DNA of 47,668 bases from Candidatus Nomurabacteria bacterium RIFOXYB1_FULL_39_16 (lineage in GTDB: Bacteria; Patescibacteriota; Minisyncoccia; Phycocordibacterales; UBA9973), in NCBI GenBank assembly GCA_001787205.1, contig MFWB01000011.1:1-47668 (forward strand), written 5' to 3'. Under the pieces are notes generated by a model that was not told the origin of the DNA, made no database searches, and saw only the letters and a program-made list of their open reading frames with translations. Within the stretch, counting starts at the first letter, position 1, and each line of letters begins with the position of its first letter. Of the stretch, positions 1-31,115 are shown in pieces. A program made the position numbers and the translations under genes.

Positions 1-914
<914 letters not shown>

Positions 915-11627: not shown

Positions 11628-11650
11628 TTACAGGTATCGGATACCTGTAA
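11628..11650. repeat. REP palindrome copy 2
   Basis: TTACAGGTATC-G-GATACCTGTAA. Confidence 0.9.
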
Positions 11651-11730: not shown

Positions 11731-11757
11731 CCTTCCAGGTATCGGATACCTGGAAGG
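11731..11757. repeat. REP palindrome copy 3
   Basis: CCTTCCAGGTATC-G-GATACCTGGAAGG. Confidence 0.9.
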
Positions 11758-12389: not shown

Positions 12390-12395
12390 AATTAT

Positions 12396-12476
12396 TCCCC
12401 TCTTGAGGGGTAGCCAAAGGCCGGGGTGGAAAAACTCATCCACCTCCCCCTAAAGGGTACTCCTCAAAGAGGAGAA
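12396..12476. repeat. BoxC-like double palindromic element, intergenic
   Basis: CCCCTCTTGAGGGG...CGGGGTGG and CCACCTCCCCCTAAAGGGTACTCCTCAAAGAGGAG; same layout as the ftsK and metG inserts. Confidence 0.75.
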
Positions 12477-13579: not shown

Positions 13580-15553
13580 TTATTGCGCTAGGGCTTTTGC
13601 GCGAGACACTGGTCCGAGAAGACCGTCTGCCGTCAAACCCTTGGATACTTGCCATGCTTTTGCAGCAGCGATGGAAAGTTTTCCACACCATCCGTCTGTG
13701 ACGAGGCCTGCATTTGCCTTGTCATTCAAGAACATCTGCCAAGCCTTGCAAGCTTCGCCCTTGGTTCCCAATTTAACTGTATATTGTCCAAATGCATAAG
13801 CATTTCCATTTGGTGTGTTTGAAGAAGTAAATTTTGTACACTTCTTTCCTGTTACAGTGTGATATGCACTTCCCGTAGGACATGTGACCTCCGTCGTAGC
13901 AGAAGTTGTTTCTTCTTCATCCTCGTCATCACTCGAAGAAGATGAGCTTGAAGATGAGGAAGAGGAACTTGAAGACGGGTCTGTTGTTACTGTTACTGTA
14001 CTGGTGCCACTATGAGCAACATCAATACTTCCTGTTGCCCCCACTAAGAAGTAGGTATTATTTGTATGCGCAGCTGGGAGAGTGGAACCAGTTGAACCCC
14101 AGGTACCTGAGGTCTTTGTAGAACCTGCAAGTTTTAGTTTGTTTGCAGTGTTGGCATTTCCTACTAAAGTAGCTGTAGCTGTGCCGGTTGGAGCAATAGA
14201 CAAAGTTTGACCAATGATCGTAGCAGCGGTGAGAGTTTTTGTGCCGCTTCCGGAAAGTGTCAAGTTGCTGTAAGTGCTGGTAGTTCCATCCCGCACTGTT
14301 TGTGCTCCAGCCAAGTTATACACCACCGTATTTCCAGCTGCTGTAGCGGTAAACACAGTAATATCTACAACATCATCACCAATAGTCAAAGTACCAGTCG
14401 CCCCATTTATTATTCCTCCAGTACCTGTCAAAGACGCGGTGGCTGTAATTGCGCCGTTGTTGGTAAGAGTAATTCCAGCTCCAGTGACGGTCAAAGCTGT
14501 AGCTACTGTCAGTGTGCTACTAGCATCAACAGAATGGTTTCCAGTAACAATTGTAACGCTAGGGATTATAGTTGCTGTAGTACCACCGATGGTCTTGGTG
14601 GTAGCTCCATTGAATGTGTGAAGCCCTGTGCTTGCAGTAAAGGTCGTAGCATTGTTTGTCCAATCACCACCAATGGTATAAGTACCAGCACCTATTGATC
14701 CATCCCATACAGCGCCACTATTTAAAGTAACGTTGCCGGTGAAAGTTTTTACGCCTGTACTGAAAGTTATCGTTCCGGTAATAGAAGATGCACCAGTTAC
14801 TGTGAATGTTTGTGTATTAGTAGCGATAGTTCCCGCAGTTAAGGTAAGAGTACCTCCGAAAGTCGTAGCACCGAGCAAAGTTGCCGTACCAGCTCCAGAT
14901 TTAGTCACATTGTTATATGTGGTGTAAGCGCCGATATTTTGTGCATCAGCTGAATTGAAAGTGATTCTTCCTCCAGTACCATCTAAAGTTGCACCAGAAG
15001 GAAAATGACCACCGAAATTCATATCACTGTCTCCAGTAGAAGTAAACTGAACTTGTGCGGCATCAGTCCAAGTACCGCTCACATCTCCGGTAACGGTAAT
15101 TGTTCCTGTGCTAACACTAAGAACCATATTACCAGCCGCAGCTCCGTCGCTAATAACAAGAGTATCGGTGGAAAATGTTCCAGTACCTACTGCGATACTT
15201 GAACCTGCTGCGCCTGTAGTAGCAGTGTATGTAGTAGCTCCAGAAACAGTGAGGGTGTTGCCGGTTAACGCAAGACTGTTTGCCGCAGCCACAGCATCAT
15301 TAAATGTAAGAGCAGTTATAGTAGAACTTCCGCTCATGGTAACCACGGACCCAGTAGGAATAACTACGCTATCAGCCGCTTGTGGAAGAATTCCTCCGCA
15401 ACCAGACCAATTGCCAATAGTATGCCAATCGCCATCTCCTACGAATGTACATGTGTTAGCATATGCACTGTCAGGCGAAGAGCCGAGAACCACGACCGCT
15501 AAAACAAGAACAGAGAAAAAAGAAACTAAACGAAACATTTTTTTATTTAACAT
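13580..15553 (-). CDS. Secreted Thr/Gly-rich beta-solenoid adhesin-like protein with C-terminal PG-binding domain
   Basis: Signal peptide; GDWHTIGNWSGC; repeated TYSNLTLSGSGTKTL / KSGAGTATL strands; poly-Ser linker; C-terminus paralogous to 12479..13474. Confidence 0.82.
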   Translation of the reverse strand: MLNKKMFRLVSFFSVLVLAVVVLGSSPDSAYANTCTFVGDGDWHTIGNWSGCGGILPQAADSVVIPTGSVVTMSGSSTITALTFNDAVAAANSLALTGNTLTVSGATTYTATTGAAGSSIAVGTGTFSTDTLVISDGAAAGNMVLSVSTGTITVTGDVSGTWTDAAQVQFTSTGDSDMNFGGHFPSGATLDGTGGRITFNSADAQNIGAYTTYNNVTKSGAGTATLLGATTFGGTLTLTAGTIATNTQTFTVTGASSITGTITFSTGVKTFTGNVTLNSGAVWDGSIGAGTYTIGGDWTNNATTFTASTGLHTFNGATTKTIGGTTATIIPSVTIVTGNHSVDASSTLTVATALTVTGAGITLTNNGAITATASLTGTGGIINGATGTLTIGDDVVDITVFTATAAGNTVVYNLAGAQTVRDGTTSTYSNLTLSGSGTKTLTAATIIGQTLSIAPTGTATATLVGNANTANKLKLAGSTKTSGTWGSTGSTLPAAHTNNTYFLVGATGSIDVAHSGTSTVTVTTDPSSSSSSSSSSSSSSSDDEDEEETTSATTEVTCPTGSAYHTVTGKKCTKFTSSNTPNGNAYAFGQYTVKLGTKGEACKAWQMFLNDKANAGLVTDGWCGKLSIAAAKAWQVSKGLTADGLLGPVSRAKALAQ

Positions 15554-15778: not shown

Positions 15779-17806
15779 CTAGCTAGTTATAAACTTATAA
15801 CCAGTCTGGAAGTCTTCAACAGGAGTCAATGATTGAATCAACTCGTCAACACCGTCAGCCAAGGCTGCAGCTAGATAAGTCTGTACCCCTTCCACATGCA
15901 CGCGCATTGAGGTGGCTAGGTTTTCTGGTACAGTAAGAATCACTTGAAGCGTACAGGTTACTGCATCACCCTCGTCTAGACGATAAGCGGTAGTAGCTTC
16001 AATATCCGCACTACATGTGAATGTTGAAGAGCTAGTACCAGCCATCAAGTCTGTAGAAGGAGCTGCTGTATCTTGGAAGGCATATGAGAATGCCTGGCTG
16101 GCAGAGATAGAAGCAACGGCTGCTTCTTTGTCAGCTGAAAGTCCCAAGTAGCGAGTGTCACCAAACGCAGTTACAGTCAACGGAATGTTGTATGTAACTT
16201 GAGTAGTATCAGCGCCATCAGTAACTGTCTCGTAAGTAACTGTACCCATGTCTACTATCACACCAGAACTGAAGAATGTCTGAATTTCACCGATAGCGGA
16301 ACCGGTAAGGTCGGCAGCGCCGACTGCATCACCGTTCGCATCTTCTACATCAGTGTCAGCATCTTCTAGGTCTGCTGTAGGGAAGCTTACTACGAAAGTA
16401 TCACCTTGTTCAAAGGTATCATCACCAGCTTCGGCAGCAATAGCTCGAATCTTTGCAACAACCTTGAAGTTTACCGTGTCTCCCTCATCAATCAACAAGT
16501 CAAGATTGGTGAAATGAAGATCACCAGTAAGGTCGTCAACGGCGTCAGCATAGGCAGAAATTGAGTCAACCTCATCGCCTTCCATTTCCAGAGAGAGAGA
16601 GGAAACCATATCAGCCCAAGTATCATCAACGCCTACGACAGTACCTGTCATTTCAATAGCGTCAACAGTCATGTCTGAACCTTCCGCTTTCAAAGTAAAC
16701 TCAAGCATAGTTACATCAGTGGTAGCAGTAGTATCAACCTCAACGTTTGCAGCGTCAGGGTTGGCAGAAGCTGCAGTGAGTTTCAATTCAAGGTCACCTG
16801 AAGTTGCAAGGTCATCGAAATCGAAATCTCTTTCGAATGCACCTGCTTCGTCAGCGCTAGCCGCACTACCTGCTTCTGTTGTTGTAACTCCATCCGCATC
16901 CTCAAAGCGTACGCTTATAAGGTCAGCGCCCCAGACGTCAGTGTCAATATCACCTGAGTCAAGATTGCTTGATGCTGTAACAGCTACATAAAAGACTTCT
17001 GTCTCACCAGCATCGATAACCGCGCCGTCAAGAGCAATAGTTTTTGAGTAGTAATTGCTAGTTTCAGAAAAATCATCTGCATCAGCTTCACCAACTTTTT
17101 CACCGCCCATAAAGATAGACACTGAATCAGCATAATCTTCTAGTCGGCGTGAACTTGCTGTGTTTGAATTGAAAAATTCAACTTTTGCAGAAGTGATTTC
17201 TACGTCTGATTCATCATCAGCTTCAACCTCGAAACCAAGAACAGCTACATCTTCATCACCAGCTACAACTTCCTCGTTAGAGTAAGTTGACTTGGCAGTA
17301 AGAGTGATTGATCCTGCTCCACCCTCTAATGAACCATCAGAAGATGAACCAGTTGAACTATCGCATTTTGTTCCTGTCAGAGGAGAGTATCCTGCTGTTG
17401 AAGAACATCCTGCTGGAAGTCCTGCTGAAGTACCAGTATTACATGCTACTCCAGTTGTTGCACTGAATCCGGAAGCTGAAGTACATCCTGCTGGAAAGTT
17501 TCCTGTAGGTGCACCCATCAAAGCTGCACGAGACATAGCGCCGACAACTCCGTCAGCAACTAGACCATGACCTGCTTGCCAAGCCATAACAGCAGCCTTG
17601 GTCATAGGACCAAATTTGCCATCAGCTGTAGCACCGATTATTGTCTGTAGGCAAGAAACTTCTGCGCCTACTGAACCTGCTCTTAAAGTAGTTGTGATTG
17701 TACAATCAGCTGAAGCTGAGTTCACAGACACTGCTGCGAATCCAACAACCATTATTGCTACAACCATAACTCCTAGAAGAAATTTTGATTTTAATAATTT
17801 ACTCAT
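15779..17806 (-). CDS. Acidic secreted surface (S-layer-like) protein with N-terminal PG-binding domain and Cys repeats
   Basis: Signal peptide; TLRAGSVGAEVSCLQ...DGKFGPMTKAAVMAWQ; two AGCxSxxGxSxxTG repeats; long Asp/Ala/Thr-rich beta region. Confidence 0.8.
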   Translation of the reverse strand: MSKLLKSKFLLGVMVVAIMVVGFAAVSVNSASADCTITTTLRAGSVGAEVSCLQTIIGATADGKFGPMTKAAVMAWQAGHGLVADGVVGAMSRAALMGAPTGNFPAGCTSASGFSATTGVACNTGTSAGLPAGCSSTAGYSPLTGTKCDSSTGSSSDGSLEGGAGSITLTAKSTYSNEEVVAGDEDVAVLGFEVEADDESDVEITSAKVEFFNSNTASSRRLEDYADSVSIFMGGEKVGEADADDFSETSNYYSKTIALDGAVIDAGETEVFYVAVTASSNLDSGDIDTDVWGADLISVRFEDADGVTTTEAGSAASADEAGAFERDFDFDDLATSGDLELKLTAASANPDAANVEVDTTATTDVTMLEFTLKAEGSDMTVDAIEMTGTVVGVDDTWADMVSSLSLEMEGDEVDSISAYADAVDDLTGDLHFTNLDLLIDEGDTVNFKVVAKIRAIAAEAGDDTFEQGDTFVVSFPTADLEDADTDVEDANGDAVGAADLTGSAIGEIQTFFSSGVIVDMGTVTYETVTDGADTTQVTYNIPLTVTAFGDTRYLGLSADKEAAVASISASQAFSYAFQDTAAPSTDLMAGTSSSTFTCSADIEATTAYRLDEGDAVTCTLQVILTVPENLATSMRVHVEGVQTYLAAALADGVDELIQSLTPVEDFQTGYKFITS

Positions 17807-18218: not shown

Positions 18219-18288
18219 AACCCCTCCAACCTCCCCTTATCAGGGGAGGCGAATGGTTTCCCCCTGACAAGGGGGAATAAGGGGGGTT
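18219..18288. repeat. BoxC-like inverted doublet, intergenic
   Basis: CCCCTCCAACCTCCCCTTATCAGGGGAGG...TTCCCCCTGACAAGGGGGAATAAGGGGGG; shares 21 identical nt (CCTCCCCTGATAAGGGGAGGT, opposite strand) with the ftsK insert at 20838-20858. Confidence 0.85.
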
Positions 18289-18291
18289 AAT

Positions 18292-19161
18292 CTATTTAAT
18301 GAAATATCTGCTCCAACGCTTGGAACCCTCCTTCTTAAGAACACCATCAGAGACCATAGATACGAGCTCTCTTTGGAGTGTCTTTTCGCTATGAGAGTCC
18401 AGGGACCCCACCTGACCAGGCAAGGTGTGCACTTTGTCCTTTATGTCCTTTATAGTGGCGTTCCCGCCTAGAATCTTTATTATATTTAATATATCTTCGC
18501 GTCTTTGTTTCTTTAACAAATCAAAATTGTGCGCTCCGGATATCCCCTTGATGGCCTTCATAAGCGTCCCCGCCTTTTGGACACCTAGACTAGAATGATG
18601 TCCTTTAGAAACTCCTCTCCTCCTTGTGGAGGAGGAGTGCCCGAAGGGCGAGGTGGTGATTAAAGAATTACCACCCCCTGCCCCCTCCTCATTAAGGAGG
18701 GGAGGAATCCCATCTTCAAACAACTCCGCTATATCAATTTTTTTATTTAAAATTTCAACCTTTGGGATAGAGTCTGTAATGCTTTGTTTTAATTTAAAAA
18801 ATTCCTTCCTCAGAATATCACAATTCATTCCAGAGACTATATTCATAGTGCCTGCGATGTCCAGAAAGGACACGATGTCCCCTACTTTTCCAAGTATAAC
18901 GGACGCCATATGTCCAGCCCTACTTTCTTCTAAAGAGCGCATGTCCGATATGATTTCTGTGCCCAATGTCCTTAATTTATTTCTAAGAGGCTCGTCTTTA
19001 TCAATAATGTCCGTGACCATATAGAGAGCGGTAATGAGCTTGTCGGTCTTGGGATAAAGCCCACCCCCTCCTGGCTCCTCCCCCTTAATAAGGGGGAGGT
19101 TGGGTAGGGGTGAGTTTGTGTCCTTTTGGAGGTTCTTGAGATTTTTTTCTTCTCCCAACAT
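18292..19161 (-). CDS. Hypothetical protein: helical N-domain and C-terminal winged HTH; contains two repeat inserts
   Basis: KTDKLITALYMVTD...EPLRNKLR; C-terminal ATIKDI...SEKTLQRELVSMVSDGVLKKEGSKRWSRY. Confidence 0.78.
   Translation of the reverse strand: MLGEEKNLKNLQKDTNSPLPNLPLIKGEEPGGGGLYPKTDKLITALYMVTDIIDKDEPLRNKLRTLGTEIISDMRSLEESRAGHMASVILGKVGDIVSFLDIAGTMNIVSGMNCDILRKEFFKLKQSITDSIPKVEILNKKIDIAELFEDGIPPLLNEEGAGGGNSLITTSPFGHSSSTRRRGVSKGHHSSLGVQKAGTLMKAIKGISGAHNFDLLKKQRREDILNIIKILGGNATIKDIKDKVHTLPGQVGSLDSHSEKTLQRELVSMVSDGVLKKEGSKRWSRYFIK
18612..18705. repeat. BoxC-like doublet inserted in frame in the wHTH gene
   Basis: Encodes PPLLNEEGAGGGNSLITTSPFGHSSSTRRRG; one half is nearly identical to ftsK 19902-19942. 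Confidence 0.88.
19061..19114. repeat. BoxC-like element in the 5' end of the wHTH gene
   Basis: CCTCCCCCTTA-A-TAAGGGGGAGG with C-rich and G-rich tails; encodes SPLPNLPLIKGEEPGGGG. Confidence 0.85.
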
Positions 19162-19318: not shown

Positions 19319-21568
19319 ATGGCAAAAAATGGAAATGGAAGGAAGGGTGATAAATACGAAAAAAAATTTACGAGTGGATTAAAAACGCAAACTAAACACG
19401 GAATCATCGCAGTTGTATTTTTTGTTCTAGCAGTATTCTTCCTGATGACCTACTTTGATATCGCTGGAGTGGCGGGTCTTTTTATTTTTGAAAAACTGGA
19501 ATACTTGCTCGGCGTCGGATATATCCTATTACCTACTCTCCTCGTCTTGCTCGGAAGTTCATTTATAAAATCAGAAGTGCCAGACATCGGATGGACTCGC
19601 GTCATCTCCGGTATTTTGTTTCTGCTCTCGGGTTTGGGGATGATAGACATCGCTTCGGGGAACCATTCCGGCGGATTTTTCGGAGAAATTTTATCTACAC
19701 CATTCGTCTCTCTGTTTGATGTATATGCCAGTCTCGTTTTCCTCGGAGCAATTTTAATAATTTCAGTTCTGATAATGTTTGACGCCAAGCTTTCCTTCGG
19801 TTCGCTTTTCACGAGAATCAAGGCATTGTTTACGAAGAAAGAAAAAGAGTTCACCTCTGATTTAAATGAAGATGAAATGGAAGAAGTGGAAAAAGTTTCT
19901 ACTCCCCTCCTCAATGAGGAGGGGGATGGGGGTGGTAATTCTAAAAAGAACCACCCCGCTCTAAAGAGCACCCCTCCTCAACAAGGAGGGGAAGAAGAAT
20001 TTGAACTCCCCAAGCTAAAAGCAAAAAGCTACAAGCTAAATACTAATTACGTTCCTCCCCCGCTTGATTTGCTTGAGGAAGATAAAGGTAAACCGAACAC
20101 CGGCGACATCAAGGCTAACGCGAATATCATAAAGCGTACTCTCGCGAACTTCGGCATTGAAGTGGAAATGGATGAGATAACTATCGGACCGACAGTCACC
20201 CGCTACGCGCTTAAGCCAGCCGAAGGAGTGAAGCTCTCCCGCATCGTGGGACTACAGAACGACCTCGCACTCTCCCTCGCGGCGCATCCTATCCGCATAG
20301 AAGCTCCCATCCCAGGCAAGTCTCTCGTCGGTATTGAAATTCCGAATAAATCCAAATCAATAGTCGGGCTCGCCACTCTCCTCTCCGATGATAAGTTCCA
20401 GAATTCTCCGAAGCCACTCACCATCGCGCTCGGACGCAATATTTCCGGCAAAGCGGTCTTCGGTAATTTGGCGAAGATGCCACACGCGCTCGTGGCCGGC
20501 ACGACTGGCTCAGGAAAATCGGTAACCATTCATTCTATGATTACTTCCCTTCTATATAGGAATGGCCCGGAAGATTTGAAGCTCATATTGATAGACCCGA
20601 AACGCGTGGAATTAACTCTTTATAAAAACATCCCTCACCTGCTCACGCCCGTAATTACTGAAGCAAAAAAGACTATTCTAGCCTTAAAATGGGCAGCCAA
20701 AGAGATGGACCGCCGTTACGATATATTAGAGGCGGAATCCGTACGAGACATAGAGTCTTATCATAGTAATGTTTGGGGCAAAAATAAGCAAAAGACCCCC
20801 TCCAGCTCCCCCTTGGCAGGGGGAGAGAATGAGGATACCTCCCCTGATAAGGGGAGGTCAGGTGGGGTTGATCGCCTGCCTTATATTGTCATCATCATAG
20901 ACGAACTGGCGGATATTATGAGCACTTACCCGAGAGAATTGGAAGCGGCCATCGTGCGTCTGGCACAGATGTCACGAGCAGTGGGCATACACTTGATACT
21001 CTCCACACAACGCCCAGAGGTGAATGTCATCACGGGACTCATCAAGGCGAACATCCCCGCCCGTATCGCGCTGAAAGTTTCTTCTCAGATAGACTCCCGC
21101 ACGATATTGGATACAGGCGGAGCGGAAAAGCTCTTGGGCGCCGGTGATATGCTCTACTCTTCGGGTGAAGCTCAGCCAGAACGTCTGCAGAGTGCTTTCA
21201 TCTCCGAAGTAGAGGTGAAAAAAGTAGTGAAATATTTGGCGGATGCCTATGCGGACGAGGTGACAGAAGAGATAACCCTAACCGCGGGCTCTATCTCTGC
21301 CGATAAAAGCATTTTTGAGGCTTCGCTTGATGACGATGATATGGATGACGATGATGAAATGTATGAAGAGGCCCGAGCCTGCGTGATGGAGGCGGGAAAA
21401 GCTTCCACTTCTTATTTGCAAAGAAAATTGAAATTGGGATATGCGCGCGCGGCTAGACTGATGGATAAACTGGAAGAACGCGGAGTGATTGGTCCAGGAG
21501 ACGGCGCAAAGCCGAGAGAGGTGTTGGAAAAAGTAGAAAGAACAGAAGATGGGGAAAATGTGATCTAA
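19319..21568 (+). CDS. ftsK: DNA translocase FtsK/SpoIIIE
   Basis: N-terminal TM domain; Walker A AGTTGSGKS; IDPKRVEL; Walker B IVIIIDELAD; gamma domain LQRKLKLGYARAARLMD. Confidence 0.97.
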   Translation: MAKNGNGRKGDKYEKKFTSGLKTQTKHGIIAVVFFVLAVFFLMTYFDIAGVAGLFIFEKLEYLLGVGYILLPTLLVLLGSSFIKSEVPDIGWTRVISGILFLLSGLGMIDIASGNHSGGFFGEILSTPFVSLFDVYASLVFLGAILIISVLIMFDAKLSFGSLFTRIKALFTKKEKEFTSDLNEDEMEEVEKVSTPLLNEEGDGGGNSKKNHPALKSTPPQQGGEEEFELPKLKAKSYKLNTNYVPPPLDLLEEDKGKPNTGDIKANANIIKRTLANFGIEVEMDEITIGPTVTRYALKPAEGVKLSRIVGLQNDLALSLAAHPIRIEAPIPGKSLVGIEIPNKSKSIVGLATLLSDDKFQNSPKPLTIALGRNISGKAVFGNLAKMPHALVAGTTGSGKSVTIHSMITSLLYRNGPEDLKLILIDPKRVELTLYKNIPHLLTPVITEAKKTILALKWAAKEMDRRYDILEAESVRDIESYHSNVWGKNKQKTPSSSPLAGGENEDTSPDKGRSGGVDRLPYIVIIIDELADIMSTYPRELEAAIVRLAQMSRAVGIHLILSTQRPEVNVITGLIKANIPARIALKVSSQIDSRTILDTGGAEKLLGAGDMLYSSGEAQPERLQSAFISEVEVKKVVKYLADAYADEVTEEITLTAGSISADKSIFEASLDDDDMDDDDEMYEEARACVMEAGKASTSYLQRKLKLGYARAARLMDKLEERGVIGPGDGAKPREVLEKVERTEDGENVI
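19902..19992. repeat. BoxC-like doublet in frame in the ftsK linker
   Basis: CTCCCCTCCTCAATGAGGAGGGGG...CCACCCCGCTCTAAAGAGCACCCCTCCTCAACAAGGAGGGG; encodes PLLNEEGDGGGNSKKNHPALKSTPPQQGG. Confidence 0.88.
20795..20869. repeat. BoxC-like doublet in frame in the ftsK motor domain
   Basis: CTCCCCCTTGGCAGGGGGAG...CCTCCCCTGATAAGGGGAGG; encodes TPSSSPLAGGENEDTSPDKGRSGG just before LPYIVIIIDE. Confidence 0.88.
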
Positions 21569-23735: not shown

Positions 23736-23779
23736 CCATACTCCCGGGATATGGGAATTCCCATATCCCGGGAGTATGG
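23736..23779. repeat. Perfect 44-bp palindrome between rpsR and efp
   Basis: CCATACTCCCGGGATATGGGAA|TTCCCATATCCCGGGAGTATGG. Confidence 0.9.
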
Positions 23780-25015: not shown

Positions 25016-25054
25016 AGGTTTCATAGTAGCAAAAACTTTTTAAAAAAGCAATTC

Positions 25055-25091
25055 ACCTCACCCCAGCCCTCTCCTTAATAAGGAGAGGGGG
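25055..25091. repeat. BoxC-like element downstream of tatD
   Basis: ACCTCACCCCAGCCCTCTCCTTA-A-TAAGGAGAGGGGG. Confidence 0.9.
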
Positions 25092-25977: not shown

Positions 25978-26017
25978 GGATTAATTCAATTAAGAACCTC
26001 ACCCTGCCCTCTCCTTA

Positions 26018-26377
26018 TTAAGGAGAGGGTGAATTTAATTCATTGATAATTTTCTTTAATACACTATCTATATTAACATTTACTTCATTATTCCAAAAAC
26101 GAATTACTTTTATACCAAATACAGATAAATAATCGGATCTTTCAATGTCATATTCTTTATTTTCAATATGCTGTGAACCATCAATCTCAATCGCCAACTT
26201 TTTTAACGGACAATAAAAATCCAAAACATACGGACCCACGGAATACTGTCTTTTTATTTTTAAACCTAACTGATTATTTCTTAATTTACCCCAAAGAATT
26301 TCTTCTTCCTTGGTTTGAGATCGCCTTAATAAAACACGCTTGGTTAAATTTTTTGTCTTATTATAGAAAACCGTCAT
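26018..26377 (-). CDS. DUF559 (Vsr-like) endonuclease domain protein
   Basis: LRRSQTKEEEILWGKLR...KRQYSVGPYVLDFYCP..KLAIEIDGSQH...RSDYL..FGIKVIRFWNNEV. Confidence 0.92.
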   Translation of the reverse strand: MTVFYNKTKNLTKRVLLRRSQTKEEEILWGKLRNNQLGLKIKRQYSVGPYVLDFYCPLKKLAIEIDGSQHIENKEYDIERSDYLSVFGIKVIRFWNNEVNVNIDSVLKKIINELNSPSP

Positions 26378-26391
26378 ATGATGAATAAGCT

Positions 26392-26757
26392 CTACTGACT
26401 TTTAGTTGCAACCTCTAAAATATATCCATCTGGGTCTTTAAAATCTACAGTATAAGCGGTTTTGTTTTTGTAAATATAATCAACTGGACCCCTAATAATA
26501 TTTCCATTATTACTTATCAAGAATTCCGCCACTTTATCTACGACACTCCTAGATTCAGCAAGAAAACAAATATGACGTGGTCCTGCACTTTTGATAAACC
26601 CAAAAGGTTGTTCTATAAAATAAATTTTTGTTTCTCCATTACTAAACCCATTTTCATTTATCTTTTGCCAATCAATGACTTGAAATAGGTTTTCATAAAA
26701 ATTTAAAGAAACAGCAAGCTTCGAAACCCAGAATTCTATATGTTTTATTGTTGTCAT
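26392..26757 (-). CDS. VOC/glyoxalase family protein
   Basis: IKHIEFWVSKLAVSLNFY...HICFLAESRSVVD...YTVDFKDPDGYILEV. Start MTTIK; the ORF's upstream extension is translated repeat. Confidence 0.9.
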   Translation of the reverse strand: MTTIKHIEFWVSKLAVSLNFYENLFQVIDWQKINENGFSNGETKIYFIEQPFGFIKSAGPRHICFLAESRSVVDKVAEFLISNNGNIIRGPVDYIYKNKTAYTVDFKDPDGYILEVATKSQ

Positions 26758-26807
26758 GTAATTTATTCCCCTCTCCTTAATAAGGAGAGGGGTTGGGGGT
26801 GAGGTTC

Positions 26808-28295
26808 TCAATCTTTTCTTAAAAACAAAGGTTTCTCGGGTTTTTTGTTGGCTTTAATTAACTCTTGGATTGTTTGAGAAGTTTCAGGCAATATTAGTTC
26901 TAACATCTTTACTATTTTATACAAACGAATAACCATATCGGAAATTAATTCTTTCCCTTTTTTCTCATCTATTTTTACAACTTTAAACGGTTCTGTTTCT
27001 TGGATAGATTTATCCAGTTCGCCAATTTTATCCCAGACAAAGTCCGTCGCTTGTTTGATGTCAAATTTTTCAAAAAAACTAAAATATTCTGTGAAATCTG
27101 TCTCCTCTCCAATCTCTGGACACTTTTCTAAATATTTTTCTGATAATGTAAGTATTCGTGAAGTTAAATTCCCCAACCCATTTGCCAATCCAGAATTATA
27201 AGCATCTTTAAAGCGTTCCATTGTGAAGGGACTATCTTCAAAGGAAGAAACTTCTCGCAAAAGGAAATAGCGGAGCGCGTCGGTGCCGTATTCCGCGACC
27301 AATCCCGTCGGATCTGCGACATTGCCCAAAGTTTTAGACATTTTTACTCCTCCATCCGCTGTAATAAATCCATTCACTACTATTTGATGTGTATTTTTTA
27401 CACCGGCAGCCATCAGCATCGCTTGCCACATTGCAGATTGAAAACGAGTATTATCTTTCCCACAATATTGCGTCGGGTTTCCATTCACCCAATATTTTTC
27501 AAACAAATCCTCCCCTCCTGCCTGAGGAGGGGTGCCCTTTAGGGCGGGGTGGTGGGAGTCTGGCCAACCTAGGGTAGAAATATAATTCGTAAGTGCATCA
27601 AACCACACATACATCACGTGCTCTTCATCCCCCGGCACCGGTATGCCCCAAGACATCTTTGATTTCAAGCGTGAAATAGAGAAATCTTGTAGCCCGCGAG
27701 AGACAAAAGCCTTCATTTCATTAAAGCGAAAATCGGGCACGACAAAATTCGGATTTTCTTCGTAAAATTTCAAAAGTTTTTCACCAAATTCACTATACTT
27801 GAAAAAGTAATTTTCTTCTTCAATAATTTCAAGCGGACGGCCAGGGTGCACGGGGCATTCATCATTTACGAGTTCGGAATCACTCTTCGTTTCTTCGCAA
27901 CCGACACAATATTTCGCTTCATAATTTTTCTTATAGATATATCCATTGTCATTCACCCTCTTCCAGAATTCTTGCGCGGACTTTATGTGATGTTTATCTG
28001 TCGTGCGGACAAAATGCAAAATTTCTTCATCCATCCCGAAAATTTTCACTGATTCTTTGAATTTTAAAAAGTTCTCGTCTACGAATTCTTGTGGCTGTTT
28101 GCCCTGTGAGAGAGCTTTCTCGTAAATCTTCATTCCGTGCTCGTCCGTGCCAGTGTTAAAAAAAACATCAAAACCTTGCAGTTTTTTGTATCTGGCGATG
28201 ACATCCGTCCGCACAAATTCCAGCGCATGCCCCATATGGAGGTCCGCGTTTACGTACGGAAGAGTCGTTGTAATGTAGAAACTAGTTTTTTTCAT
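26808..28295 (-). CDS. metG: Methionine--tRNA ligase (short form)
   Basis: FYITTTLPYVNADLHMGH; GTDEHG; YCVGCE; YVWFDALTNY; KMSKT. Confidence 0.97.
   Translation of the reverse strand: MKKTSFYITTTLPYVNADLHMGHALEFVRTDVIARYKKLQGFDVFFNTGTDEHGMKIYEKALSQGKQPQEFVDENFLKFKESVKIFGMDEEILHFVRTTDKHHIKSAQEFWKRVNDNGYIYKKNYEAKYCVGCEETKSDSELVNDECPVHPGRPLEIIEEENYFFKYSEFGEKLLKFYEENPNFVVPDFRFNEMKAFVSRGLQDFSISRLKSKMSWGIPVPGDEEHVMYVWFDALTNYISTLGWPDSHHPALKGTPPQAGGEDLFEKYWVNGNPTQYCGKDNTRFQSAMWQAMLMAAGVKNTHQIVVNGFITADGGVKMSKTLGNVADPTGLVAEYGTDALRYFLLREVSSFEDSPFTMERFKDAYNSGLANGLGNLTSRILTLSEKYLEKCPEIGEETDFTEYFSFFEKFDIKQATDFVWDKIGELDKSIQETEPFKVVKIDEKKGKELISDMVIRLYKIVKMLELILPETSQTIQELIKANKKPEKPLFLRKD
27509..27556. repeat. 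BoxC-like element in frame in metG
   Basis: Minus strand CCCACCACCCCGCCCTAAAGGGCACCCCTCCTCAGGCAGGAGGGGAGG = HHPALKGTPPQAGGE; compare ftsK NHPALKSTPPQQGGE. Confidence 0.88.
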
Positions 28296-29361
28296 CGCTT
28301 GTTTTTAATAGAGTCTTGTCTTTCTCAATATCATTCAAAAATTCCATCAAAATCACAGACATCGGGATAGAGAGAATGGCTCCCCAAACTCCGCCCAATT
28401 CAAAGCCTATCACCACCGCCAAGATAATGACAATAGGCGAAAGACCCACTATCTTCTTGATAATAAGTGGAGCAAAAAGGAAAACTTCAAATTGGTGAAC
28501 AATGATATAGGCTCCGGTAACCATTACGGCGCTTCCCAGTCCGTCGGAAATGTACGAGAAGAAAAAAGTCGGAACCAAAGCGACTAAAATACCGTAAGGC
28601 ACCATCTCCATTATTCCCGCGATGATGGCAAGCAAGAGCGCGTACTGTATTCCGACAAGCGAGAGTATTAGATAGATCAAAATACCCACCACAACACCGA
28701 GAAGCATCTGCCCCTTTACCCAGAGGCCTATCTTGCGGCTTGAGCGCGCCCACAGGTCAACCACGTAATTTTCATAGGAAATAGGAATAATGATACGAAG
28801 GAAATTCTCTATCCCCTTTTCTTGGATTGAAAGATAAAAAGAAAGAACGATAATCAGGAAAAAGTTGAAGATGCTTCCGAAAGCCACAGAGATGGTGGTA
28901 AAGAATCCTCCAGACAAATTCAAAATGAAAGTCTTGGACACAGACAGAAGCGACGAGACAGAAAAGTCTCCTCCCAGACTGCTCACCACATCTTTCGCCC
29001 CGGAAAACGCTTCGTTTTTGAAAAAATTCAATATGGAAACATCGGGAGCATAAGAGGCTAAGAAAGTGGAGAAGTTATAAATTTCTGTTATTAAAAGCGG
29101 AGCAAAGAGATAAAACATTCCCGACAAAATGGACAACGACACGGCATACGTTATTACAATACCCAAGATTCTGCCAATTCCTATCTTTTGGAAATGGGGC
29201 ACGGATGATTCCATAAAAGAAGCAATCACGATAGCGGTCAAAACCACTAAAACCAAATCTCGCAAGAACCAAAACAGGAACACAGAGATAAGAATCAGAA
29301 CAGCTCGGACTATGCTGCCGGTAGACACTGAAACAGAAGTAATATTTCCTTTCTCAGACAT
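28282..29361 (-). CDS. AI-2E family (PerM-like) transporter
   Basis: Polytopic; WVKGQMLLG; PLIIKKIVGLSPIVIILAVVIGFELGGVWGAILSIP; start MSEKG. Confidence 0.9.
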   Translation of the reverse strand: MSEKGNITSVSVSTGSIVRAVLILISVFLFWFLRDLVLVVLTAIVIASFMESSVPHFQKIGIGRILGIVITYAVSLSILSGMFYLFAPLLITEIYNFSTFLASYAPDVSILNFFKNEAFSGAKDVVSSLGGDFSVSSLLSVSKTFILNLSGGFFTTISVAFGSIFNFFLIIVLSFYLSIQEKGIENFLRIIIPISYENYVVDLWARSSRKIGLWVKGQMLLGVVVGILIYLILSLVGIQYALLLAIIAGIMEMVPYGILVALVPTFFFSYISDGLGSAVMVTGAYIIVHQFEVFLFAPLIIKKIVGLSPIVIILAVVIGFELGGVWGAILSIPMSVILMEFLNDIEKDKTLLKTSDEKN

Positions 29362-29382
29362 AAAAATATAATAGCACAAAAA

Positions 29383-30651
29383 CTAGAATTTAAGAATCTT
29401 CAAGAATGGAACCTTTTCCTTAAACGGCCCAATGAGCGCCAAATTCAGCTTTTTGTTTTGAAAGATTTCTCCGGCCAGATTTTGAATTTGTGCTGCTGTA
29501 ACCTTACGTATTTCTAGAGCTTTTTCTTCCATATTGCGGGATTTCCGCTTCAGAAGCTCTTGTCCACCGTAGAAATTGGCGATGTCATCGCTTGATTCCA
29601 GGGAAAGCTTCATATTGCCTATTAGGCATTCTTTCACTTTATTTAATTCCTCTTCCCCCACCTTTTCATTTTTTAATTTTTTACATTCTTCCAAGACTGC
29701 CGAGAGAACTTCATTTATTCTTTTATTGTCCACCCCGGCGGAAATCTGGAAAAATCCGTGGTCGGTATAAGTGTCGTTGTAAGCCCGCACATAATACCCG
29801 ACGCCCATTTCTTCTCTGAGCTTTTGGAAAAGTCTAGAACTCATTCCTCCGCCCAAGACTCCCCCCAGGACCGAGAGCACGGCATTGTTTTTACTAAACA
29901 GGTCATAAGTGCGCACACCCAAGACGAAATGTGTCTGGTCCGTCTGCTTGAAACTTATCAACGCTTCAGGCTTGCTTTGAGCTTCTTTCACTTTTACTTT
30001 GCTCATTTTCTTGCCTCGTTTCACAGAACCGAAAATTTTATTCGCCTCACGCAATACTTCTTTTTCTGTCACCGCTCCTGCTACTATGAGCACAGTGGCT
30101 TCAGGTAAATAATGAGCTTTTTTGTAATTAACAAAATCGTCGCGTTTCATATTCAAAATATTTTTCTTGGAACCGGCTATGTTCCATCCAGCCGGGGCGT
30201 CTCCATAGAGCAACTCCATCATCAAATCCTGCACGTGCCTGTTCGGCAAATCTTCGTACATATTTATTTCTTCTATAATCACACCCTTTTCCTTTTGCAT
30301 TTCAGCCTCCGGAAAAGTGGAATTCAAATAAATATCTGACACCACATCAAAAATTTTACTGAAGTGTTTTGCATCAGATTTTGCATAGTATCCTGTATAT
30401 TCTTGTCCGGTAAAAGCGTTGTACTGACTGCCCAATGCATCTAACTCTTTTGAAATATCAATAGCCTTAGGCCTCTTCACCGTGCCCTTGAAGCACATAT
30501 GCTCCAAAAAGTGAGAAATTCCGTTATTTCTTTTCTCTTCATATTTGGACCCGGCTTCTACCAAGACAAGCACTGTTGCCGTAGGATTCTCCTTCATCGG
30601 AATAGTAACAACCCGCAGTCCATTTTTTAAAACTTTTTTTGAGAATTTCAT
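29383..30651 (-). CDS. M16 family Zn-dependent peptidase
   Basis: HFLEH (HxxEH); NAFTGQEYT; GGGMSSRLFQKLREEMG; start MKFSKK. Confidence 0.95.
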   Translation of the reverse strand: MKFSKKVLKNGLRVVTIPMKENPTATVLVLVEAGSKYEEKRNNGISHFLEHMCFKGTVKRPKAIDISKELDALGSQYNAFTGQEYTGYYAKSDAKHFSKIFDVVSDIYLNSTFPEAEMQKEKGVIIEEINMYEDLPNRHVQDLMMELLYGDAPAGWNIAGSKKNILNMKRDDFVNYKKAHYLPEATVLIVAGAVTEKEVLREANKIFGSVKRGKKMSKVKVKEAQSKPEALISFKQTDQTHFVLGVRTYDLFSKNNAVLSVLGGVLGGGMSSRLFQKLREEMGVGYYVRAYNDTYTDHGFFQISAGVDNKRINEVLSAVLEECKKLKNEKVGEEELNKVKECLIGNMKLSLESSDDIANFYGGQELLKRKSRNMEEKALEIRKVTAAQIQNLAGEIFQNKKLNLALIGPFKEKVPFLKILKF

Positions 30652-30672
30652 ATGAATCATATTACCACAGAT

Positions 30673-31107
30673 AGCACCCCACCCCAACCCTCCCCTTGGC
30701 TAATGGGAGGGCGAACTCAACCTACTAACAATTTCTTGTAAAACTCCACTTATGTTATTAGTTATCTCACTATTCCAAAAGCGAACTGTCTTTATATCTA
30801 AGGTCAAGAGATAATTATCTCTTTCTTGATCGTATTCTTTGTTATCAAGATGCTGTGCTCCATCCAATTCAATTGCTAGTTTTTTATCAGGACAATAAAA
30901 ATCCAAAATATAGGGTCCTATAGAATGTTGGCGTTTGAATTTAAAACCCAATTGAGCGCCACGCAAATATGCCCACAAAATAACTTCTTGCTGAGTTTGA
31001 TTTTTTCGTAACTCAACTCTCCGAGGTTTTAAAACTGGATGATTGTGGAGTATGGGCATTTGCATTTTCCTCCCCCTTCGCCAAGGGGGAGGCTAGGAGG
31101 GGGTGCT
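30673..31107. mobile_element. DUF559 cassette 2: inverted BoxC-like ends enclosing a single DUF559 gene
   Basis: Left AGCACCCCACCCCAACCCTCCCCTTGGCTAATGGGAGGG; right CCTCCCCCTTCGCCAAGGGGGAGGCTAGGAGGGGGTGCT; both outer ends read AGCACCCC. Confidence 0.7.
30700..31065 (-). CDS. DUF559 (Vsr-like) endonuclease domain protein
   Basis: LRKNQTQQEVILWAYLR...FKRQHSIGPYILDFYCPDKKLAIELDGAQH...RFWNSEI. Confidence 0.92.
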   Translation of the reverse strand: MQMPILHNHPVLKPRRVELRKNQTQQEVILWAYLRGAQLGFKFKRQHSIGPYILDFYCPDKKLAIELDGAQHLDNKEYDQERDNYLLTLDIKTVRFWNSEITNNISGVLQEIVSRLSSPSH

Positions 31108-31115
31108 GGTGGTGA

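What the first reader, a model, noticed from the sequence alone, without database searches (positions are those of the whole stretch)
25993..31107. Candidate mobile system: DUF559 endonuclease cassettes bounded by inverted BoxC-like hairpin repeats
Seen: two separate DUF559 genes share one architecture. Each is bracketed by inverted repeats made of a C-rich tail plus a hairpin, tails pointing outward. Each cassette has its own matched outer ends (AGAACCTCACCC for 25993-26808; AGCACCCC for 30673-31107), and in both the nuclease stop codon falls in or at the loop of the downstream hairpin (SPSP*, SPSH*). Eight further copies without a nuclease occur in the window (12396, 18219, 18612, 19061, 19902, 20795, 25055, 27509). 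Recalled, to be verified: E. coli BoxC has a similar CCCTCACCC..CCCTCTCC..GGAGAGGG form and occurs near ycjD, a DUF559 gene. Inference: DUF559 is the trans-acting enzyme of a repeat-spreading system analogous to RAYT/REPIN but using a Vsr-like nuclease instead of an HUH transposase. I know of no mechanistic description of such a system.
Basis: partly seen in the sequence, partly recalled or inferred. Interest (0 to 1): 0.9.

Follow-up and report, generated by a model that had tools for sequence, protein, structure and literature searches.

The report
Nuclease gene framed by triplex repeats
Two small nuclease genes of unknown function (DUF559) each sit between a matched pair of hairpin-plus-tail DNA repeats of the old, unexplained "BoxC/triplex" kind, and the same pairing recurs from this tiny groundwater bacterium to E. 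coli, which makes this nuclease a first testable candidate for the enzyme behind those repeats.

Summary
All 5 DUF559 genes of this 762-kb genome are bracketed by C/T-rich hairpins with a C-rich or G-rich tail. Of 813 crude ORFs, only 6 have such hairpins at both ends, and 4 of those are DUF559.

The repeats are a known class: BoxC / PIT / "intrastrand triplex motifs" (PMC4666352). The tail is a mirror copy of the purine arm.

In 101 genomes of the genus:
- 71 of 76 stand-alone DUF559 genes have a hairpin at an end.
- Nuclease clades match repeat subtypes.
- Repeat counts co-vary with DUF559 presence, with many exceptions.
- The metG-tatD and glyS-M16 junctions occur empty, with a solo repeat, or occupied, and different lineages occupy the same site.

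The pairing also holds in 66 of 71 stand-alone genes from about 14 phylum-level groups, in E. coli ycjD and in a cyanobacterial plasmid.

No paper I found links DUF559 to these repeats. That the nuclease mobilises the repeats is inferred, not shown: I found no target duplication, no recent copies, and no known chemistry for it. High interest.

The parts
25993..26029 (.). Cassette 1, tatD-side end: C-rich tail (AGAACCTCACCC) plus hairpin CCCTCTCC-TTATTAA-GGAGAGGG. The DUF559 stop codon lies in the loop.
   Evidence: ssDNA fold z -3.96
26018..26377 (-). DUF559 nuclease gene 1 (119 aa), repeat subtype A
   Evidence: Pfam PF04480 E 2.3e-33. AF2 pLDDT 84.9; best PDB fold 3hrl, then the I-Bth0305I catalytic domain
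26392..26811 (-). Passenger gene of the Glyoxalase/VOC family. The ORF as listed runs into the repeat; the likely start is the ATG at 26757.
   Evidence: Pfam PF00903 E 7.3e-11; sequence
26769..26808 (.). Cassette 1, metG-side end: hairpin plus G-rich tail (GGGTGAGGTTCT). It abuts the metG stop codon.
30661..30711 (.). Cassette 2, M16-side end: outer tail ATTACCAC, inner tail AGCACCCC, then the hairpin. The DUF559 stop codon lies in the loop.
30700..31065 (-). DUF559 nuclease gene 2 (121 aa), repeat subtype B
   Evidence: Pfam PF04480 E 9.1e-33; clade B in the tree
31069..31115 (.). Cassette 2, glyS-side end: hairpin, tail GGGGTGCT, outer tail GGTGGTGA. It abuts the glyS stop codon.
25052..25091 (.). 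Gene-less subtype-A half unit (tail plus hairpin), just past the tatD stop codon
27509..27560 (.). Single unit (hairpin, small hairpin, G tail) in frame inside metG. It adds 14 aa that baseline orthologues lack.
19902..19995 (.). Paired unit with tails pointing inward, in frame inside ftsK
   Evidence: ssDNA fold z -8.16
20795..20870 (.). Paired unit with tails pointing outward and a 12-nt spacer, in frame inside ftsK. Same layout as a cassette without its gene.
18613..18704 (.). Paired unit with tails pointing inward, in frame inside a 289-aa ORF (18292-19161, no Pfam match)
19061..19115 (.). Single hairpin with both tails, in frame in the same 289-aa ORF
18219..18290 (.). Gene-less paired unit with tails outward (subtype E layout), just past the stop of the 289-aa ORF
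12395..12476 (.). Gene-less paired unit of subtype G (CCCCTC-TT-GAGGGG plus GGGGTGG tail; second hairpin CTCCTC..GAGGAG)
   Evidence: The same subtype lies 3' of divergent DUF559 genes in relatives.

Best explanation
Each locus is a copy of a compact, self-contained module. It consists of a stand-alone DUF559 nuclease gene (Vsr-like PD-(D/E)XK fold, catalytic residues intact), framed by two repeat units that are inverted copies of each other. One of the two also carries a passenger gene.

Each unit is a pyrimidine/purine hairpin plus a tail that mirrors the purine arm. That is an intrastrand-triplex motif of the BoxC/PIT/TM class. The gene uses the units for expression: a purine run sits at Shine-Dalgarno distance before the ATG, and the stop codon lies in or next to the downstream hairpin. 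The same units occur dozens of times without a gene, singly or in pairs, between genes and in frame within genes.

Shown here:
- The module and the units are insertions that come and go at orthologous junctions.
- Nuclease lineages and repeat subtypes diversify together.
- One genome keeps several old, diverged lineages side by side.
- The gene-repeat pairing spans many phyla.

Inferred:
- The nuclease recognises its own subtype of folded repeat (hairpin, cruciform or triplex extruded during replication or under supercoiling) and nicks it.
- Host repair or replication then copies the repeat, and at times the whole module, to new sites.
- In logic this works like RAYT/REPIN. The chemistry is different and unknown.
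For: This genome:
- 5 of 5 DUF559 genes are bracketed by the repeats.
- 4 of the 6 ORFs (of 813) with hairpins at both ends are DUF559.

Genus sample:
- Of 76 stand-alone DUF559 ORFs, a hairpin lies within 60 bp upstream in 55, at the stop in 60, at both in 44 and at either in 71. Background is 0.386 per kb.
- Both tails are of the same subtype in 26 of 26 cassettes where both could be classed.
- The two ends are closer as inverted than as direct repeats in 27 of 38 (direct 8, tie 3).
- Tree of 67 proteins: subtype labels need 18 changes against 35.6 when shuffled (0 of 200 shuffles as low). Clade support: B 93, C 100, D 98, E 99, F 99.
- Hairpin count against DUF559 count in 101 genomes: Spearman 0.54; median 9 hairpins with DUF559, 1 without.
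- Subtype-specific: A hairpins median 6 against 1 (p 8e-4); D hairpins 3 against 1 (p 2e-3). Cross control of A hairpins against the D clade gives p 0.79.

Insertion states:
- metG-tatD, 28 junctions: 11 empty, 4 with a solo unit, 1 gene-less pair, 6 with DUF559.
- glyS-M16, 26 junctions: 14 empty, 1 solo, 4 with DUF559.
- Subtypes A, B, C and D occupy metG-tatD in different genomes; B and D occupy glyS-M16.

Repeat structure and protein:
- Tails mirror their own purine arm. Of 111 tails, 57 are perfect mirrors against 12 perfect direct matches. Mean score is 0.918 against 0.816 +/- 0.008 for shuffled pairs.
- Catalytic-type residues are invariant in 28 of 28 sequences.
- Fold matches: 3hrl TM 0.69/0.87; homing endonuclease I-Bth0305I 0.64/0.77.

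Across phyla:
- 66 of 71 stand-alone genes have a hairpin at an end.
- E. coli ycjD and a Picosynechococcus plasmid show the same pairing.
Against: - No biochemical or genetic test exists.
- Co-variation is loose. 11 of 46 genomes without DUF559 have 5 or more hairpins (G116 has 47; G064 has 27). 17 of 55 genomes with DUF559 have fewer than 5. 9 of 30 genomes with an A-clade gene have 2 or fewer A hairpins. 7 genomes have 7 or more D hairpins without a D-clade gene. These are incomplete draft genomes and relatives are not independent, so the p-values overstate.
- I could not define a target-site duplication.
- There are no near-identical copies. Paralogues within one genome are at most 77% identical, and otherwise 62% or less. 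Nothing shows ongoing movement.
- Physical linkage alone would make gene and flanking repeat co-diversify.
- Ends are direct, not inverted, in subtype F and closer as direct repeats in 8 of 38 cassettes. Tails point outward in this genus but inward in many other phyla, so there is no single fixed end structure.
- A lone PD-(D/E)XK nickase has no known strand-transfer activity (established knowledge).
- The only in vivo data on a DUF559-domain protein (Caulobacter VsrA) tie it to cytosine methylation and the SOS response (PMC12907096, passages read).
Confidence: 0.45

Rival explanations
1. Landing-pad, or homing, reading. The repeat units spread or arise by some other means. DUF559 is a free-standing, homing-endonuclease-like selfish gene that cuts paired units and is copied by repair into the spacer between their two hairpins. 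It parasitises the repeats rather than moving them.
For: - Gene-less pairs with the same layout as cassettes exist: tail-hairpin-spacer(8-21 nt)-hairpin-tail, for example at window 18219-18290 and 20795-20870 and at several other sites in the genome.
- The closest characterised fold is a Vsr-like homing endonuclease (PMC3239194, abstract read).
- The same junctions are occupied again and again by different lineages.
- Degenerate gene copies occur, as in a homing cycle: L040, fragments in four genomes, and a second partial copy beside E. coli ycjD.
- Many genomes keep their repeats without any DUF559.
Against: - In about half of the genes the ORF runs into the downstream hairpin (34 of 67), and the purine arm or tail serves as the ribosome-binding region. 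Gene and units are therefore fused, not merely adjacent.
- The ...SPSP* ending on the pyrimidine arm is shared by this genus and E. coli.
- Spacers of gene-less pairs are not conserved.
- The protein is a single 115-135 aa domain, whereas I-Bth0305I is multidomain (PMC3239194, abstract).
- This reading does not explain why solo-unit counts follow the cognate clade.
Confidence: 0.2
2. Cellular-function reading. DUF559 is a host repair or defence nuclease, Vsr-like and tied to cytosine methylation. The repeats are passive structural or expression elements (ribosome-binding region, transcript ends, recombination hot spots). Small accessory genes, DUF559 among them, are shuffled in and out of hot spots by recombination between repeats or between the conserved flanking genes.
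For: - Caulobacter VsrA, which contains a DUF559 domain, causes an SOS response when ScmA methylation is missing (PMC12907096, passages read).
- This genome has two C5 cytosine methyltransferase genes.
- Cassettes can carry unrelated passengers: VOC, NUDIX, an AAA_18 kinase-like protein.
- The glyS-M16 junction also holds unrelated inserts in 6 of 26 genomes.
- Holder et al. link these motifs to rearrangement in E. coli (PMC4666352, abstract and sections 15 and 18 read).
- In E. coli, ycjD sits where the eefRABCD operon is missing (PMC12817139, passages read).
Against: - Specificity. In this genome no gene family other than DUF559 is regularly bracketed.
- 71 of 76 genes in the genus and 66 of 71 across phyla carry the repeats.
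- Nuclease clade and repeat subtype match even when the insertion site differs.
- Neither methyltransferase gene lies near a DUF559 gene.
- There are 5 DUF559 genes but 2 methyltransferases.
Confidence: 0.2
3. Chance, low-complexity or assembly artefact. C-rich palindromes happen to lie near small ORFs in draft genomes.
For: - The genomes are fragmented drafts.
- Contigs of public runs break at the repeats.
Against: - 77 hairpins against 0-1 in shuffles.
- The same architecture appears in E. coli K-12 and in a finished cyanobacterial plasmid.
- Contigs from other samples with 0 differences bridge tatD to cassette 1 and M16-cassette 2-glyS.
Confidence: 0.01

Closest known systems
BoxC / PIT elements / intrastrand triplex motifs (TMECO) of E. 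coli, Synechocystis, H. influenzae and others (Holder et al. 2015, PMC4666352; earlier papers cited there were not read)
   Same: - Three-block unit: pyrimidine arm, purine arm, and a third block that mirrors the purine arm.
- Loops are less conserved than stems.
- Many copies per genome, often as inverted pairs of two types.
- Linked to genome variability.
   Different: - Described as always intergenic in E. coli K-12, and with no mobility gene nearby ('never found ... transposases or integrases'). The terms DUF, ycjD and endonuclease have 0 hits in that text.
- Here, units also sit in frame inside genes.
- Here, a nuclease gene is regularly framed by them.
REPIN / RAYT systems (PMC3116915, PMC2817692, bioRxiv 10.1101/2022.05.22.493013; search listings and abstract beginnings only)
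   Same: - A short palindromic repeat family, with doublets in inverted orientation.
- A single-copy gene flanked by its own repeat type.
- Several diverged systems per genome, with long-term persistence rather than bursts.
   Different: - The enzyme is a PD-(D/E)XK Vsr-like nuclease, not an HUH Y1 transposase.
- The repeat has a triplex-type mirror tail.
- The window holds a separate Y1_Tnp gene with its own, different palindromes.
I-Bth0305I and the 'EDxHD' Vsr-like homing endonucleases (PMC3239194, abstract read)
   Same: - Vsr-like nuclease fold (Foldseek TM 0.64/0.77).
- A selfish gene with presence/absence at fixed sites.
- A pseudopalindromic target.
   Different: - That enzyme is intron-borne in a phage, multidomain, and a homodimer footprinting about 60 bp.
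- Here the gene is free-standing, single-domain, chromosomal and framed by repeats.
- DUF559 is rare in phage records: 3 of 50,697.
Vsr of E. coli and VsrA of Caulobacter (PMC12907096, passages read; PMC1189080, passages read)
   Same: - Same superfamily. YcjD-like proteins detect Vsr by profile (PMC1189080).
- VsrA contains a DUF559 domain.
   Different: - There is no adjacent cytosine methyltransferase here.
- Vsr is only a weak fold match (TM 0.49/0.44).
- Nothing in the Vsr model explains framing by repeats.
Rickettsia palindromic elements and other MITEs that insert in frame into genes (recalled; no call)
   Same: Short palindromic units are tolerated in frame inside essential genes (here metG and ftsK).
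   Different: - Different sequence class.
- No associated gene is known to me for those elements (recalled).

Membership tests
DUF559 (Pfam PF04480) | Match to the family model above the curated cut-off | tested here: met
   114.7 and 112.8 bits against a cut-off of 20.6. 5 matches in the genome.
DUF559 (Pfam PF04480) | Vsr-like PD-(D/E)XK fold, as in the solved member 3HRL | tested here: met
   Profile hit to 3hrl_A at 5e-31. AF2 model pLDDT 84.9; Foldseek 3hrl E 9.4e-8, TM 0.69/0.87.
DUF559 (Pfam PF04480) | Conserved acidic and histidine residues of the active site | tested here: met
   D53, E64, D66 and H70 are invariant in 28 of 28 aligned genus members. That these are the catalytic residues rests on knowledge of the superfamily, not on a test.
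BoxC / PIT / intrastrand triplex motif | Three consecutive blocks: pyrimidine arm, complementary purine arm, third block mirroring the purine arm (G on G, T or A on A) | tested here: met
   57 of 111 tails are perfect 9/9 mirrors against 12 direct. Mean 0.918 against 0.816 for shuffled pairs.
BoxC / PIT / intrastrand triplex motif | Over-represented, multi-copy, with stems more conserved than loops | tested here: met
   77 against 0-1 in shuffles; listings.
BoxC / PIT / intrastrand triplex motif | Strictly intergenic location (as reported for E. coli K-12) | tested here: not met
   Five in-frame copies in metG, ftsK and a 289-aa ORF.
BoxC / PIT / intrastrand triplex motif | Forms a triplex in vitro | not testable with these tools
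   Only hairpin folding could be computed.
REPIN / RAYT | Associated enzyme is an HUH Y1 (IS200-like) transposase | tested here: not met
   The framed gene is PF04480, not PF01797. The window's PF01797 gene (10941-11609) has other palindromes.
REPIN / RAYT | Gene flanked by its cognate repeats; one copy per repeat family; repeat abundance tied to the gene | tested here: met
   The tie to abundance is loose.
Homing endonuclease gene | Presence/absence at a fixed site, with the empty site being the enzyme's target | tested here: inconclusive
   Presence/absence is shown. Truly empty sites carry no repeat, and gene-less paired units exist elsewhere. Cleavage is untested.
IS / MITE (cut-and-paste transposon) | Terminal inverted repeats | tested here: met
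   Ends are closer as inverted repeats in 27 of 38 cassettes. Tails match in 26 of 26.
IS / MITE (cut-and-paste transposon) | Target-site duplication and a transposase of a known class | tested here: not met
   No duplication is recognisable at the metG-tatD or glyS-M16 junctions. The only gene present is a PD-(D/E)XK nuclease.
Vsr very-short-patch repair | Genetic linkage to a C5 cytosine methyltransferase | tested here: not met
   The two PF00145 genes (C10:1516-2436 and C8:154255-155328) are not next to any of the five DUF559 genes.

The most novel reading that the evidence does not exclude
DUF559 nucleases are the long-missing enzymes of the BoxC/PIT/triplex-motif repeats throughout bacteria. 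On this reading they are structure-specific nickases that recognise their own subtype of folded hairpin-plus-triplex unit and seed its copying by host replication or repair. That would be a class of mobile or self-maintaining DNA built on a PD-(D/E)XK nickase and a non-B DNA structure. It would have no transposase, recombinase or intron. It would be able to plant short in-frame peptides into essential genes and to carry small passenger genes.
Probability: 0.35. Interest if true: 0.9.

Novelty: new variant of a known kind. Interest (0 to 1): 0.8.

Why it matters
BoxC/PIT/triplex repeats have been catalogued since the 1990s. According to PMC4666352 they occur in more than 260 genomes and are linked to genome instability, yet no gene has been tied to them. 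DUF559 is a very large family with no assigned role.

A specific, cross-phylum pairing of the two makes both questions testable in E. coli K-12, which has one ycjD gene and 23 such motifs (PMC4666352).

If the nuclease acts on the repeats, this would be a repeat-spreading system with new chemistry. It would also be a source of in-frame insertions in essential proteins of reduced genomes, and a natural enzyme specific for a non-B DNA structure.

Tried and rejected
- Rfam, gathering thresholds, on the whole window: only LSU rRNA at 1-914(-). No family covers the repeats.
- Terminator reading, by eye: the units lack T runs and sit inside coding sequences. Rejected.
- Target-site duplication: I compared empty, solo and occupied metG-tatD and glyS-M16 junctions and could define none. 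Insertions begin at or within the upstream gene's stop codon.
- Public runs: 20 rows, all kept as assembled contigs from groundwater or soil metagenomes. No RNA holder was listed, so nothing can be said on expression.
- Read laying on X11-X14 at 88% likeness: contigs break at the repeats. The listed joints have sides of 40 letters or fewer and may come from other organisms, so I draw no conclusion on excision. One contig of X11 replaces 27503-27564 with 18 other letters, which is in line with the metG insert being variable but may come from another species.
- Complex prediction, two copies of DUF559: no answer. It is not evidence either way.
- Phages and plasmids: DUF559 relatives in 3 of 50,697 phage records and 41 of 72,556 plasmid records, 34 of them non-mobilizable. 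These are not the obvious vehicles.
- My first ORF script left an internal stop in 5 of 67 ORFs (found). Counts were redone with a corrected script. The tree and the tables still use the first set.
- The regex for one cross-phylum module type was too strict and found 6 loci. By eye, the type 'CCCCCTCTTAAG..AAGAGGGGG hairpin, GGGGGAG tail, ATG' is present in L113, L116, L125, L131, L133, L140, L145 and L150.
- Rows dropped. Fused or long DUF559 proteins (frames over 200 aa, about 12 places) and fragments were left out of all flank counts. Loci from other genera (L001, L014, L021-L023) were left out. L014 was, however, included in the tree and, and in the protein set.
- Papers. Searches for DUF559 (25 papers), ycjD (21), 'potential intrastrand triplex' (6), 'intrastrand triplex'+bacteria+repeat (20), Vsr-like+palindromic+repeat+mobile (7), BoxC+REP+E. 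coli+RAYT, BoxC+BIME+IRU+RSA and Patescibacteria+palindromic+repeat+in-frame+insertion gave no paper that links DUF559 or YcjD to these repeats. I judged this from listings and from the passages I read. Subscription journals are not searched, and supplementary tables (for example Table S2 of PMC4666352, which lists genes next to each motif) were closed and may name ycjD.

Full report
WHAT IS THERE. The window is contig C11:1-47668 of a 762,513-bp, 18-contig genome with GC near 0.39. The nearest named relatives of its DUF559 genes are titled Candidatus Nomurabacteria or Patescibacteria. A CPR organism is therefore likely, though this is an inference. Pfam names 26018-26377(-) and 30700-31065(-) as DUF559 (E 2.3e-33 and 9.1e-33). 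The neighbours are tatD, a VOC/glyoxalase gene, metG, an AI-2E transporter, an M16 peptidase and a class II glycyl-tRNA synthetase-like gene.

There is a C-rich tail plus a C/T-G/A hairpin on one side and the inverted arrangement on the other. The stop codon lies in the loop of the downstream hairpin. Cassette 1 also holds the VOC gene. Cassette 2 has a second, outer pair of tails that abut the glyS stop codon.

BEYOND CHANCE, AND SPECIFIC. The genome holds 77 exact 7-bp C/T-rich hairpins, against 0-1 in each of five Markov shuffles. It has five DUF559 genes (tblastn; PF04480), and all five are bracketed. Four have tails pointing outward. One, on C17, has both ends in direct orientation. Of 813 crudely called ORFs, only six have a hairpin within 80 bp of both ends. 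Four are DUF559; the others are tatD, which neighbours cassette 1, and a 289-aa ORF that carries repeats.

WHAT THE REPEATS ARE. They belong to a described class: BoxC, later 'potential intrastrand triplex' (PIT) elements and 'triplex motifs' (TMECO). Holder et al. 2015 (PMC4666352; I read the abstract, sections 15 and 18, and passages) report 23 copies in E. coli K-12, always intergenic, with five inverted pairs of two types. They report occurrence in more than 260 genomes and triplex formation in vitro. [quoted passage not shown] The terms DUF, ycjD and endonuclease do not occur in that text.

The tail here is not merely C- or G-rich. It is a mirror copy of the unit's own purine arm, with A answered by T or A. 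Of 111 hairpin sides with a G-rich tail, 57 are perfect 9/9 mirrors against 12 perfect direct matches. The mean score is 0.918, against 0.816 +/- 0.008 when arms and tails are paired at random. This is the purine-motif triplex rule, and it explains why each stem subtype has its own tail. Paired units also fold strongly as single strands (z -8.2 and -5.9). Rfam has no family for them.

Unlike in E. coli, five units lie in frame within genes: in metG, twice in ftsK, and twice in a 289-aa ORF. In metG the unit adds 14 residues that baseline orthologues lack. Other orthologues carry different or decayed inserts at the same spot.

THE GENUS. In a sample of 101 genomes (100 plus this one; one, G075, is unpublished), 55 have DUF559 and 81 have the hairpin pattern. 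I fetched the DUF559 loci. Among 76 distinct stand-alone ORFs, a hairpin lies within 60 bp upstream of the start in 55, at or over the stop in 60, at both in 44 and at either in 71. The density more than 400 bp away is 0.386 per kb. By eye, four of the five 'none' cases have degenerate or long-loop hairpins.

The usual layout, in gene orientation, is: tail, hairpin, 7-46 nt, ATG, gene, stop in or beside a hairpin, tail. In 34 of 67 genes the last codons are encoded by the repeat, giving endings such as ...SPSP* (three of the 34 are ORFs whose end my first script mis-set).

Seven subtypes (A-G) differ in stem and tail. Where both tails could be classed they agree in 26 of 26 cassettes. The two ends are closer as inverted than as direct repeats in 27 of 38 (direct 8, tie 3). 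Conserved stem mismatches appear reciprocally at the two ends of subtype C, as expected of true inverted copies.

Nine or so cassettes hold a second gene between the upstream unit and DUF559. Examples are VOC here, NUDIX (3.7e-22), an AAA_18 kinase-like protein (8.5e-9), and two weak nucleotidyltransferase-like ORFs below cut-off.

CO-DIVERSIFICATION AND CO-VARIATION. In a tree of 67 DUF559 proteins the repeat subtype is strongly clustered. It needs 18 changes against 35.6 when shuffled (0 of 200 shuffles as low). Clades B, C, D, E and F have support of 93-100 (quick method, 120 columns, many open forks; the set includes one locus, L014, from another genus). The five genes of this genome fall in five different clades. 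Paralogues within one genome are at most 77% identical, and otherwise 62% or less (42 pairs). Orthologues between genomes reach 89%. The genes are therefore old, co-resident lineages and not recent duplicates.

Hairpin count and DUF559 count correlate: Spearman 0.54, with a median of 9 hairpins with the gene and 1 without. By subtype, A hairpins (minus two for the cassette) have a median of 6 in 30 genomes with an A-clade gene, against 1 in 71 others (p 8e-4). D hairpins have a median of 3 in 8 genomes, against 1 in 93 (p 2e-3). The cross controls give p 0.79 and 0.017.

The exceptions are many. G116 has 47 hairpins and no DUF559. Eleven of 46 DUF559-less genomes have five or more hairpins. 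Seventeen of 55 DUF559 genomes have fewer than five. These are draft genomes and relatives are not independent, so the p-values overstate.

INSERTIONS, NOT FIXTURES. Of 28 orthologous metG-tatD junctions:
- 11 are empty (gap -5 to +5 nt; one of them is L047, from G075).
- 5 have 10-40 nt without a repeat.
- 4 hold a single unit.
- 1 holds a gene-less pair (L050: hairpin, 16 nt, partial hairpin). This looks like a cassette that lost its gene.
- 6 hold DUF559; in L040 only a fragment remains.
- 1 holds 1,355 nt of other DNA.

Of 26 glyS-M16 junctions:
- 14 are empty.
- 1 has 40 nt without a repeat.
- 1 holds a solo unit.
- 4 hold DUF559.
- 6 hold unrelated inserts.

The insert always starts at or within the stop codon of the upstream gene and has the orientation of its neighbours. 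The same junction is used by different lineages. metG-tatD is occupied by subtypes A, B, C and D in different genomes, and glyS-M16 by B and D. Lineages B and D each occur at two or more sites. This excludes simple vertical inheritance of one insertion. It shows either movement between sites or replacement at hot spots. I could not define a target duplication.

BEYOND THE GENUS. Of these, 71 encode stand-alone proteins, and 66 of the 71 have a C/T hairpin within 60 bp of an end, against a background of 0.34 per kb. In many Nitrospirae, Deltaproteobacteria, Chloroflexi and some CPR loci the tails point inward: hairpin, G tail, ATG ... TAA, C tail, hairpin. Nearly the same unit type recurs across these phyla, which suggests that gene and repeats travel together.

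In E. coli K-12, ycjD ends ...RRSPSP* with its stop in the loop of a BoxC-like hairpin. A degenerate second copy of the gene's 3' end follows, and then a canonical BoxC about 170 nt downstream. In Picosynechococcus PCC 7002 plasmid pAQ6, a DUF559 gene has two hairpin-plus-G-tail units upstream and a C tail plus hairpin over its stop.

THE PROTEIN. Twenty-eight genus members share invariant D53, E64, D66 and H70 (numbering of the first window ORF) and several arginines. The profile hits one solved structure, 3HRL (5e-31). The AlphaFold model (pLDDT 84.9) matches 3HRL best (TM 0.69/0.87). Next comes the catalytic domain of the Vsr-like homing endonuclease I-Bth0305I (0.64/0.77), and Vsr only weakly (0.49/0.44).

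The only in vivo work on a DUF559-domain protein that I found is on Caulobacter VsrA. It triggers an SOS response in cells lacking the ScmA cytosine methyltransferase (PMC12907096, passages read). This genome has two C5 methyltransferase genes, neither near a DUF559 gene.

HOW IT MOST LIKELY WORKS. Shown:
- A gene-plus-repeats module that is an insertion.
- Subtype-matched inverted ends.
- Gene-less derivatives of the same layout.
- Co-diversifying nuclease and repeat.
- Several old lineages per genome.
- A pairing conserved across phyla.

Inferred (0.45): the nuclease binds and nicks its own subtype of folded unit, and host repair or replication copies units, and sometimes the module. This is RAYT/REPIN-like in logic.

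Rivals:
- The gene homes into pre-existing paired units (0.2).
- It is a cellular repair or defence nuclease whose framing reflects expression signals and recombination hot spots (0.2).
- Artefact (0.01).

Against the favoured reading stand the loose co-variation, the lack of target duplications and of recent copies, the variable end geometry, and the absence of any known strand-transfer chemistry for such an enzyme.

KNOWN OR NEW. The repeats and the protein family are each known. Their pairing is not reported in any paper reached by eight full-text searches. I file the finding as a new variant of a known kind, namely a repeat family with a dedicated flanked gene. There is a 0.35 chance that it is a truly new kind of nuclease-driven, DNA-structure-specific mobile system.

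Noticed in passing
window 10941-11609 (-), with palindromes at 10944-10960, 11631-11647 and 11736-11752: A 222-aa ORF matches Y1_Tnp (IS200-like, RAYT-type; E 3.6e-6, 27.5 bits against a cut-off of 23). It is flanked by three copies of the palindrome CAGGTATCGGATACCTG, which occurs 5 times in the whole genome. This is a small REP/RAYT-like system of the classical kind, in the same window.
   Followed up: partly
window 27509-27560 and orthologous metG loci L032-L060: The same position of MetRS (after ...STLGWP) carries inserts of different length and sequence in many relatives. L034 encodes ...PRLVEEGVGGG..., which looks like another repeat unit. The site is either a hot spot for in-frame repeat insertion or holds an old insert that is decaying.
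   Followed up: partly
L101 (E. coli K-12 NC_000913) about 5240-5420, minus strand: Between ycjD and the downstream BoxC lies a degenerate second copy of the last 25 or so codons of ycjD. PMC12817139 reports that ycjD occupies the sapF-fabI site exactly in those E. coli lineages that lack the eefRABCD operon.
   Followed up: partly
L099, L080, L096, L013, L098 (relatives) and window 26392-26811: Some cassettes carry a passenger gene between the upstream repeat and DUF559: NUDIX, an AAA_18 kinase-like protein, weak nucleotidyltransferase-like ORFs, an unknown 154-aa ORF, and VOC in the window.
   Followed up: partly
window 18664-18704 and 19902-19942: Two 41-nt units, 93% complementary, lie in inverted orientation in two divergent genes (the 289-aa ORF and ftsK). 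They enclose both 5' ends and the shared promoter region, 1,197 nt in all. This geometry could allow inversion. I did not test it.
   Followed up: no
window 12479-13474, 13580-15553 and 15779-17806 (all -): Three large, low-complexity, apparently secreted proteins (Thr/Ser/Gly/Ala-rich). All three share ...GLVADG..GP.T... repeats; the first two also share an ...AWQ... motif at the C terminus. Not examined further.
   Followed up: no
window 6822-6842 and 6936-6956; also 23736-23779: Other exact palindromes: CCCCGACACCTGGTGTCGGGG occurs twice 93 nt apart, and there is a 44-nt perfect palindrome around CCCGGG. Both are unexplained.
   Followed up: no
window 1-914 (-): The 5' part of a bacterial 23S rRNA gene, cut off by the window edge (Rfam RF02541, 691 bits).
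   Followed up: no
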